DNA of 63,882 nt, filler included, from Kipferlia bialata (taxonomy: Eukaryota), in the NCBI GenBank assembly GCA_003568945.1. It is 4 parts of 4 records of this genome, joined end to end, with 100 filler letters (N's around TTAATTAATTAA, not from the genome) between each part and the next. Parts side by side here need not be neighbours in the genome. Positions count along the whole stretch, not along the records: positions 53,212 to 63,882 come from BDIP01000531.1; 3 more parts are not named here. The stretch is one strand, 5' to 3'. The position numbers and the translations under genes were made by a program. The notes beneath the pieces are model-generated. The model saw nothing but the letters and a program-made list of their open reading frames with translations. It made no database searches and was not told the origin of the DNA. Numbering within the stretch: position 1 is the stretch's first letter; each line of letters begins with the position of its first letter. Shown here piece after piece: positions 62,611 to 63,540 of this stretch.

Positions 62611-63397
62611 TGATATAGTATATGTCTGTTATATATGCTAGTGTTCTAAGGTACTATCCATATGTATGAGCTCCGTCTGCAAGGCCAGATTGTGTCCAAC
62701 CTCAACACACAGGTATATATATATATATATATTGATATAGTATATGTCTATTATATATGCTAGTGTTCTAAGGTACTATCCATATGTATGAGCTCCGTCT
62801 GCAGGGCCAGATTGTGTCCAACCTCAACACTCAGGTATGTATATATATGCTAGTATACTATCTTTTTATATGCTTACTCTCTGTCTATATAATTATATAC
62901 GTTCTATATATATATATATATAGAACTAACTATTGAATTCAGGGCCAGATTGTGTCCAACCTCAACACTCAGGTATGTATATTAATATGGGTACATATAT
63001 ACTCTACGTATTATTATTGTATTATATATATTACACAGTATGCTATGATGACATTCATTTTGAGTCTTGAGAGTATTATTGTGTTACAGAATGTCATTAT
63101 AAGAGTGTAATTATGATATAAGTAGTACTAATTGTCAGGTCTCTGAGGTCAACGAGGACCTCAGCAGGAACAACAAGAACCTCCGGGAGATCAAGGTAAT
63201 ACATACATAAGTACATACATACAAGTGCATTATCCTTTCTACACCATGTATACATTTTTCATGGGAACAACAAGAATCTCGGGGAGATCAAGGTAGAGTA
63301 CAACATTCTCTCTCTCTTTCTTTCTCTCTCTCTTTCGACACCCTTATTTTAGGCACGCATGAGATCAGGCGACAAGTTCCTAATGGACATCGTGCTT

Positions 63398-63429
<32 letters not shown>

Positions 63430-63540
63430 ACACCCTTATTACAGGCCCGTATGAGATCTGGTGACAAGTTCCTGATGGATATCGTGCTTGTCATTGTACT
63501 ACTGGGACTGATGTGGTACCTGTACAAGGTGCTCTTCTAA
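59867..63540 (+). CDS. Qc-SNARE of the SYP7 (SYP71-like) family (5' end not seen)
   Basis: VVTLGQEIRRS in the N-terminal region. SNARE motif QDQNIDRKLEQIQDKLVRVKTQAQDIGDELRLQGQIVSNLNTQV with Q at the zero layer. C-terminal anchor MRSGDKFLMDIVLVIVLLGLMWYLYKVLF*, resembling the SYP7 tail. Confidence 0.82.

What the first reader, a model, noticed from the sequence alone, without database searches (positions are those of the whole stretch)
63353..63495. Echoes differ from the functional exon mostly at synonymous sites
Seen: the SYP7 echo 63353-63403 versus the exon 63445-63495 has 6 differences in 17 codons, all silent (GCA/GCC, CGC/CGT, TCA/TCT, GGC/GGT, CTA/CTG, GAC/GAT). The same trend appears at 38968-39021 vs ~38803-38856 (including CGC/AGG Arg, one V/L), ~45355-45405 vs ~45465-45516 (RVMSDVIHNQDRINGLR vs RVMSDVLHSQDRINGLR), ~49320-49350 vs ~49203-49238, and 60775-60814. 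Neutrally decaying intron copies should not show this bias. Inference: the echoes are or recently were under coding selection. Possible routes are that recombination or gene conversion cycles echoes into the exon, that echoes derive from a diverged allele or homeolog, or that echoes reach mRNA by a non-standard route.
Basis: partly seen in the sequence, partly recalled or inferred. Interest (0 to 1): 0.9.

Follow-up and report, generated by a model that had tools for sequence, protein, structure and literature searches.

The report
Introns hoarding retired exon ends
In this free-living protist, many introns carry short copies of the neighbouring exon's end with its splice site, and these copies differ from the working exon mostly at silent positions, so they are likely recently retired working versions, probably from other alleles, rather than slowly decaying junk.

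Summary
Confirmed, and stronger than reported. The window is Kipferlia bialata DNA. A frame-blind search of 8 genes found 128 junction-anchored 'echoes' (median 29 nt of exon plus its AG or GT) in 69 of 104 introns; control 4 hits in 436 searches. Pooled echo-exon dN/dS is 0.20 (CI 0.16-0.26; wrong frames 1.5 and 2.7). Simulated frozen echoes give 0.59 and gene conversion 0.73-0.77, so neither fits. Changes private to the nearest echo are also silent-biased (12 S: 6 N). Echo splice sites keep consensus yet match their own real site only about 50%. Stops are not avoided (6 vs 4.6 expected), so echoes do decay. An independent contig set holds echo junctions at full depth with no second haplotype; RNA contigs carry exon letters. 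Best reading: about 105-nt tandem junction duplications, silenced because the innermost splice site is used, record other recently functional versions of the junction, most likely diverged alleles captured or swapped by unequal recombination. The alleles are inferred, not seen. The scan noted junction duplications once before, in a sea-urchin gene; its listing does not mention a silent-site bias.

The parts
63353..63403 (+). Focal upstream echo: copy of the first 51 nt (17 codons) of the last exon, preceded by an acceptor-like site ending in TAG; 6 silent differences
63404..63444 (+). Spacer: (CT)n tract plus the real acceptor; related to the intron tail in front of the echo (beats 98% of foreign introns); CATT shared at the unit edge (4-nt microhomology, one case, read by eye)
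63445..63540 (+). Functional last exon of gene K with stop codon; an RNA? contig lies on 63443-63730 with 0 other letters
63264..63294 (+). Downstream echo of exon 63139-63195 with its GT, in the same intron
   Evidence: spanned by DNA contig record 7
59867..63540 (+). Gene K (Qc-SNARE/SYP7-like by recall; 5' end not modelled): 12 exons, 17 anchored echoes, 9 of 11 introns with an echo; pS 0.229, pN 0.052
60772..60816 (+).
62457..62479 (+). Upstream echo of exon 62519-62574; the RNA? contig joins 62262 to the real exon's first letters, not the echo's
   Evidence: table 5c
62666..62974 (+). Array of three downstream echoes of exon 62519-62574, including a young near-identical unit that duplicated the intron part too
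38966..39023 (+). Downstream echo of exon 38751-38856 of KIPB_002917 (cited)
45353..45403 (-). Downstream echo of exon 45538-45466 of KIPB_002918 (cited)
49312..49353 (-). Upstream echo of exon 49238-49171 of KIPB_002918 (cited)
19475..20084 (+). Array of seven upstream echoes of exon 20128-20233 (gene C, DEAD-box helicase-like by recall): six distinct consensus-fitting acceptor sequences, all four gametes at two silent sites; a 5-N gap lies inside the array
42022..52873 (-). KIPB_002918: 31 echoes, 22 of 33 introns
35734..41519 (+). KIPB_002917: 19 echoes, 10 of 16 introns
9888..17018 (-). KIPB_002906: 27 echoes, 10 of 12 introns
53460..57691 (+). Echo-free comparison gene (XPF/ERCC4-like by recall; approximate hand model): 0 echoes at threshold in 24 introns
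   Evidence: one weak self-hit at 56341/56379

Best explanation
The echoes are real tandem duplications of exon-intron junctions (about 29 nt of exon end plus about 75 nt of intron end) that differ from the working exon mostly at silent sites, likely because each one is a recently retired working version of the junction taken from a different allele. Shown: the unit anatomy, the silent bias, the intact splice consensus on a diverged intron flank, slow decay, and use of the innermost splice site in the two RNA contigs that bear on it. Inferred: (1) units arise by break repair or unequal exchange in a cell without classical NHEJ; (2) they are tolerated because the acceptor/donor pair closest across the exon wins; (3) unequal recombination through the 20-40-nt exon-derived repeat, between alleles about 0.18 apart at 4-fold sites, captures units and now and then swaps which unit sits in the working position, so an echo was filtered by selection until about 0.03-0.05 substitutions per site ago and decays only after that. 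No current function of the echo is needed.
For: dN/dS 0.20, CI 0.157-0.264; frozen-echo and conversion simulations give 0.59, 0.73, 0.77, and a two-allele-plus-decay simulation 0.22 (the last was tuned to fit, so it shows sufficiency only). Differences in the nearest echo where a farther echo equals the exon: 12 S: 6 N against 24% silent sites, P=1.6e-4 (P=0.006 against 35%). AG/GT kept in 115 of 128, per-base 0.92-0.96, about the 0-fold level, while flanking intron identity to the own real site is only 0.52/0.45 (baseline 0.37/0.35), also in echoes whose exon part is <=4% diverged. Acceptor score 8.9 vs real 10.2, matching 5% decay (8.8), not 23% (3.0). Spacers descend from the same intron in many cases (19 of 46 up, 9 of 43 down beat >=95% of foreign introns). 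Each echo adds about 105 nt. pS and pN are uncorrelated across echoes (rho -0.01). Four gametes in the 19475-20084 array. Amino-acid changes are milder than random (BLOSUM 0.14 vs -0.39). Metamonads lack Ku70/Ku80/DNA-PKcs, and fornicates lost Rad51A and keep two Dmc1 (PMC8516963 section 8). K-mer peaks suggest diploidy (PMC5874029).
Against: No second haplotype was seen: DNA contigs on 53212-63882 lie at flat depth with a 3,857-nt contig free of other letters, although contigs drop variants. No other strain or relative was found, so high allelic diversity is inferred only. In the two paralog families where changes could be polarised, echo-lineage changes were 21 S: 38 N (site-corrected about 0.57) and exon-lineage 13 S: 17 N, which a frozen echo explains equally well; these families are weakly constrained and the outgroups distant. 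Intron flanks are much more diverged than 4-fold sites, which alleles explain only if introns change far faster than silent sites. The 20-42-nt length, independent of exon length, is unexplained. Microhomology was read in one case only.
Confidence: 0.5

Rival explanations
1. Echoes are old and kept by ongoing indirect selection: deletion or single-strand annealing between echo and exon promotes the echo's splice site and codons into the working gene often enough that a damaged echo is a liability.
For: Explains a near-saturated intron flank beside a conserved exon part and splice consensus, and their lack of correlation; nearest echoes are the cleanest (0-fold 0.025); four gametes in one array.
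Against: Stops not depleted (6 vs 4.6). Two-way conversion with rejection of harmful transfers gave 0.77 (indirect selection on the echo itself was not simulated). By reasoning, exchange fast enough to purge echoes would also erase silent differences unless the population is very diverse, which returns to the best explanation.
Confidence: 0.2
2. Echoes come from a past hybridisation or homeolog (a second, diverged genome copy since lost or homogenised), copied in by homologous repair during one episode.
For: Would give silent bias, working but different splice sites and strongly diverged intron flanks in one step; an RNA? contig shows two silent changes in gene J that the DNA rows lack.
Against: Arrays hold several different versions (six acceptor sequences in one array) and 19 of 128 echoes are identical to the exon over full codons, which points to many donors and ages, not one.
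Confidence: 0.12
3. Echoes are functional at the RNA level (alternative or stepwise splicing, or non-canonical joining at the direct repeat), so their codons reach mRNA.
For: Splice consensus is kept; donor-like sites at the open end of upstream echoes are marginally enriched (P=0.052).
Against: RNA? contigs show exon letters at the focal exon and at 62519, and no echo variant rows; no acceptor at the open end of downstream echoes (0% score >=8); up and down echoes do not tile the exon beyond chance (8 of 25, P=0.057); stops not avoided.
Confidence: 0.08
4. Echoes are frozen neutral duplicates and the bias reflects only silent change in the working exon or a mutation bias.
For: Echoes do decay (stops, AT drift at third positions 95 vs 52); paralog polarisation is compatible.
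Against: Needs a 0-fold/4-fold ratio of about 0.5 or more (simulated 0.52-0.82); observed 0.215, the same for all four bases and without CpG; echo-private changes are silent-biased.
Confidence: 0.06
5. Assembly artefact: haplotype fragments stitched in at microsatellites.
For: Short-read SPAdes assembly of a possibly diploid genome; unit length is close to common read lengths; gaps inside some arrays.
Against: Contigs of run X1 hold 0.94 of sampled words and cross echo-exon junctions with 0 other letters at depth 435-480, like the echo-free gene (482); the bin with the focal echo is at 421. Decayed echoes with stops, and arrays of up to seven, cannot be one second haplotype. X1 may be the same sample, so this tests the assembler, not the culture.
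Confidence: 0.03

Closest known systems
Human F7 IVS7 37-bp minisatellite spanning the exon 7 donor (PMC1557585; abstract and outline seen)
   Same: Tandem copies of an exon-intron border inside the intron; the pseudo-donors are competent but silent because the most upstream (innermost) donor is used.
   Different: One locus, donors only, pseudo-sites identical in sequence; here donors and acceptors in about two thirds of the introns of eight genes, diverged copies, and a coding-selection signature.
Intragenic tandem/segmental duplication as a source of intron sequence (PMC3265369, PMC4974935, PMC2891723: search listing and abstract start only; Gao and Lynch 2009 recalled, title phrase seen only as search hits)
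   Same: Local duplication inside a gene changes intron content and leaves exon-like sequence in an intron.
   Different: Those cases make a new intron from duplicated exon sequence; here existing junctions are duplicated, intron number and mRNA stay the same, and the copy is silent-biased.
Tandem exon duplication with mutually exclusive splicing (PMC9013439, PMC8373072: listing and abstract start only)
   Same: Exon-like copies in introns with low dN/dS against the exon.
   Different: Those are whole exons with both splice sites that enter mRNA; echoes are half-exons with one site and were not seen in RNA contigs.
Concerted evolution and unequal exchange in tandem arrays; silent-cassette gene conversion systems (recalled)
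   Same: Silent copies and a working copy exchange sequence by recombination.
   Different: Cassette systems diversify the protein; here protein change is suppressed and the stored variants are silent codons and splice sites.
Sea-urchin 'exon echo' note of this scan (e1-7787398; unchecked AI note)
   Same: Exon ends copied head-to-tail into neighbouring introns.
   Different: One gene, about one exon end in six; the listing does not mention a silent-site bias.

Membership tests
Tandemly duplicated splice junction (F7 IVS7 type) | Head-to-tail copy spanning an exon-intron border, lying in the adjacent intron | tested here: met
   128 of 140 hits anchored within 4 nt of the junction; 115 of 128 keep AG/GT; intron part traceable in 28 of 89
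Tandemly duplicated splice junction (F7 IVS7 type) | The innermost site is used; pseudo-sites are silent | tested here: inconclusive
   Two RNA? contigs agree (joint 62262 to 62519; record on 63443-63730) and open frames need the inner sites; minor isoforms are invisible in contigs
Mutually exclusive duplicated exons | The copy is a whole exon with acceptor and donor | tested here: not met
   Median 29 nt, one site only; no acceptor before downstream echoes, donor enrichment marginal
Mutually exclusive duplicated exons | The copy appears in spliced mRNA | tested here: inconclusive
   No echo letters in RNA? contigs on 53212-63882; raw reads not available
Intron gain by tandem duplication | A new intron is created at a new position | tested here: not met
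   Echoes lengthen existing introns by about 105 nt each; up/down echoes do not abut beyond chance
Introner-like elements | A family of near-identical introns dispersed across unrelated genes | tested here: not met
   Spacers resemble their own intron rather than foreign introns; only this window was examined
Neutral pseudo-exon decay | 0-fold/4-fold divergence ratio of about 0.5-1 against the working exon | tested here: not met
   0.215 observed vs 0.52-0.82 simulated
Allele-derived duplication in a hyperdiverse species | Echo variants segregate as exon alleles; silent diversity near 0.15-0.2 | not testable with these tools
   One sample only; no relatives in metagenome contigs

The most novel reading that the evidence does not exclude
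Kipferlia genes run a genome-wide turnover of splice junctions: introns hold stacks of spare, still-competent junction versions that recombination cycles in and out of the working position, so nearly half of intron DNA in echo-rich genes is an archive of functional alleles readable from a single haploid assembly.
Probability: 0.3. Interest if true: 0.9.

Novelty: new variant of a known kind. Interest (0 to 1): 0.76.

Why it matters
It shows a route of intron growth (about 12,600 of 27,082 intron bases in eight genes) that leaves never-translated sequence with a purifying-selection signature, which breaks the usual inference 'low dN/dS means expressed coding exon'. If the allele reading holds, one assembly records a silent diversity near 0.2 and past recombination in an unsampled free-living fornicate. 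It offers a natural test bed for splice-site choice: short-intron protists are usually taken to use intron definition (recalled), yet here outer, consensus-perfect acceptors are skipped. It also misleads gene prediction: the public model of KIPB_002918 includes two echoes as exons. It bears on whether Kipferlia's intron-rich structure is ancestral or recently remodelled.

Tried and rejected
Whole genome not held, so nothing is genome-wide. Idea that up- and down-echoes are the two halves of one split exon: 8 of 25 abut within 4 nt vs 4.5 expected, P=0.057; rejected. Idea that a whole intron with both flanks is nested in the intron: 16 of 104 introns hold both types vs about 17 expected; rejected. 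Echoes as complete micro-exons: no acceptor enrichment, donor marginal. CpG or base-specific mutation bias: ratio unchanged. End-trimming bias: 0.18 after trimming 6 nt. Pfam on single exons and on P0001-P0003 gave no family above cut-off for the echo genes; the names SYP7/Qc-SNARE, DEAD-box and XPF are recalled from the translations. No Atlas result was obtained for the last exon. Metagenome scans with P0003 and P0001 found no relative. Run search: no holder on record as RNA; X2 is a guessed RNA run, though its contigs skip the modelled introns. Joint tables were swamped by microsatellites at likeness 85. Reads were laid on 53212-63882 only; the cited pairs at 38.9, 45.4 and 49.3 kb were not checked against reads. 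ARAGORN found no tRNA. Literature: searches found no description of this feature in Kipferlia; the genome paper's main text has 0 hits for duplicat/heterozyg/allel/microsatellite; its supplements and subscription journals were not seen.

Full report
Source. Three long-exon searches each returned one protein, 100% identical and named as Kipferlia bialata KIPB_002918, KIPB_002906 and KIPB_002917. The window is four pieces joined by N-flanked linkers near 17707, 35461 and 53156. The genome paper (PMC5874029; parts 1-3 of 6 read, plus a term search of the main text) describes an Illumina/SPAdes assembly of 51 Mb with 124,912 introns and two k-mer peaks read as diploidy; it has 0 hits for duplicat, heterozyg, allel or microsatellite. 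No whole genome was held.

Gene models. Three genes were modelled by exact spliced alignment of the public proteins; two predicted exons of KIPB_002918 (53035-52940, 50661-50632) are themselves echoes and were removed. Five more (K, C, J, Em, Ep) were modelled by hand; all read open to a stop with AG/GT borders. Frames are therefore independent of the differences scored. The genes were chosen partly because they showed echoes, so prevalence figures are not genome estimates.

Detection. A frame-blind ungapped search of 112 exons against their flanking introns gave 140 hits; the same search against foreign introns gave 4 hits in 436. I dropped 12 hits (more than 4 nt from the junction, or behind a last exon) and kept 128 (69 upstream, 59 downstream, 66 exons); 115 keep AG or GT. 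69 of 104 introns hold at least one; each echo adds about 105 nt, and echo-free introns have a median of 106 nt. Echo length is 29 nt (10-90%: 20-42), unrelated to exon length. One neighbouring gene has 0 echoes in 24 introns.

The bias. The focal pair has exactly the six silent changes reported, and the four other cited pairs are as described. Pooled: Sd 186 on 839 sites, Nd 136 on 2653; dN/dS 0.20, exon bootstrap 0.157-0.264; wrong frames 2.74 and 1.52; 0.18 after trimming the ragged end. 0-fold sites differ at 0.050, 4-fold at 0.229, alike for all four bases and without CpG. By gene pN/pS runs from 0.13 (C) to 0.40 (Ep); J, with two echoes, has 0 silent and 2 non-silent changes.

The right null. 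A frozen echo next to a selected exon does not give 1 but about 0.5, since the exon adds only silent change. Simulation on the real codons gave 0.59 (0.52-0.82); one-way and two-way conversion 0.73 and 0.77; two selected lineages plus 3% decay 0.22, tuned to fit. Observed 0-fold differences are 110 against 256 at the 0.5 floor (P=5e-25). In 26 arrays, changes in the nearest echo where a farther echo equals the exon are 12 silent to 6 non-silent (P=1.6e-4 against the site fraction); changes shared by the first two echoes 9:1; far-private 17:17. So the echo lineage itself passed through selection.

But echoes decay. Stops: 6 of 118 changed codons, 4.6 expected. Farther echoes are more diverged at 0-fold sites, 0.045 vs 0.025. 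Third positions drift to A/T, 95 vs 52. Non-silent changes are milder than random (mean BLOSUM 0.14 vs -0.39), a mixture of filtered and unfiltered change. Against my reading: with paralogs as outgroups (23 echoes in the A and E families, 22 with an aligned paralog exon... for the rows shown; Em exon 5 had no counterpart and was left out) echo-lineage changes were 21 S: 38 N, exon-lineage 13: 17, ambiguous 14: 11, which does not reject a frozen echo in those weakly constrained families.

The splice sites. Echo AG/GT bases are 92-96% kept, the 0-fold level, and the whole acceptor profile matches real introns (score 8.9 vs 10.2; 5% random decay gives 8.8, 23% gives 3.0). Yet the flank matches the echo's own real site at only 0.52 (acceptor) and 0.45 (donor) against baselines of 0.37 and 0.35, and no better when the exon part is nearly identical. 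With gaps allowed, the spacer is closer to its own intron than to 95% of foreign introns in 19 of 46 and 9 of 43 cases. So units are duplications by descent, and each carries a different, recently working intron end. The seven-echo array at 19475-20084 has six distinct acceptor sequences and all four gametes at two silent sites (a 5-N gap lies inside it).

Reads. Two runs of one sample hold the region. On 53212-63882, DNA? contigs lie at depth 435-506; records crossing echo-exon junctions (60184-60398, 61178-61392, 62953-63300) have 0 other letters and the same depth as the echo-free gene (482), and the bin with the focal echo is at 421. The focal echo itself is not listed as an aligned piece; record 7 is long enough to reach it. 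The only other letter in X1 (62804) is what the neighbouring echo copy carries. Echoes are thus not half-depth haplotypes. The RNA? run skips modelled introns, lies on 63443-63730 without other letters, and joins 62262 to the real start of exon 62519, not its echo. Contigs drop rare variants, so neither heterozygosity nor minor isoforms are excluded.

Mechanism. Shown: anatomy, silent bias, kept consensus, decay, inner-site use in two contigs. Inferred: units arise by break repair or unequal exchange; metamonads lack Ku/DNA-PKcs and fornicates use Dmc1 paralogs in place of Rad51A (PMC8516963, section 8 and passages read), and the focal unit has a 4-nt CATT overlap at its edge. They persist because the pair of sites closest across the exon wins, as for the F7 IVS7 pseudo-donors (PMC1557585, abstract). 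The silent differences are best explained as differences between working versions of the junction: about 0.18 at 4-fold sites at retirement plus up to 0.05 decay. Diverged alleles are the simplest source, with unequal recombination through the exon-derived repeat capturing and swapping units. This step was not simulated, and no allele was observed.

Comparison and novelty. Duplicated junctions with silent pseudo-sites are known from single loci, and this scan noted them in one sea-urchin gene. The echoes fail the tests for mutually exclusive exons, new introns and introner families. Eight literature searches found no account of pervasive junction echoes in Kipferlia or of silent-biased half-exon copies; subscription journals and supplements were not seen. 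Verdict: real, a new variant of a known kind, mechanism partly inferred; interest 0.76.

Noticed in passing
window 58948 and 58951: An RNA? contig at depth 20 of 134 carries two changes in an exon of gene J, both silent (TAC>TAT, TCC>TCG), not shown in the DNA rows and outside J's echo: a paralog or a second allele may be expressed.
   Followed up: partly
window 53460-57691: XPF/ERCC4-like gene (recalled name) has 24 short introns (median 80 nt, 4% microsatellite, 46% GC) and no echo at threshold, unlike its neighbours; echo load differs sharply between genes.
   Followed up: partly
window 53035-52940 and 50661-50632 (- strand): The public model of KIPB_002918 includes two echoes as exons, giving repeated peptides in the database protein.
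   Followed up: yes
window 27-9080: Three tandem paralogs (A1-A3) of an unknown protein; echoes of A2's exon 4290 keep two adjacent Trp codons as in A1 and A3 where the A2 exon now has Trp-Phe, so echoes can preserve an older exon state.
   Followed up: partly
window 3295-3302, about 193-200 and about 6713-6720: A short AG-GTGC[CT]AG-like element sits at the same place in one intron of all three A paralogs; possible micro-exon or conserved decoy site.
   Followed up: no
window 23600-28300 (-) and about 29000-32660 (+): Divergently arranged paralog pair (Em, Ep) with one intron-position difference and (ATTG)n-rich introns; both carry echoes.
   Followed up: partly
window 63796-63882 (-): The window ends in what reads by eye as the 3' part of a tRNA gene; ARAGORN did not call it (cut by the window end).
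   Followed up: partly
window 33702-34949 (-) and 22008-22925 (-): Two long intron-free ORFs; the first has a Kelch motif (Pfam Kelch_1, E 8e-05), the second no Pfam hit.
   Followed up: no
window 17707, 35461, 53156: N-flanked linker with stops in all frames joins separate scaffolds; gene neighbourhoods across these points are not real.
   Followed up: yes
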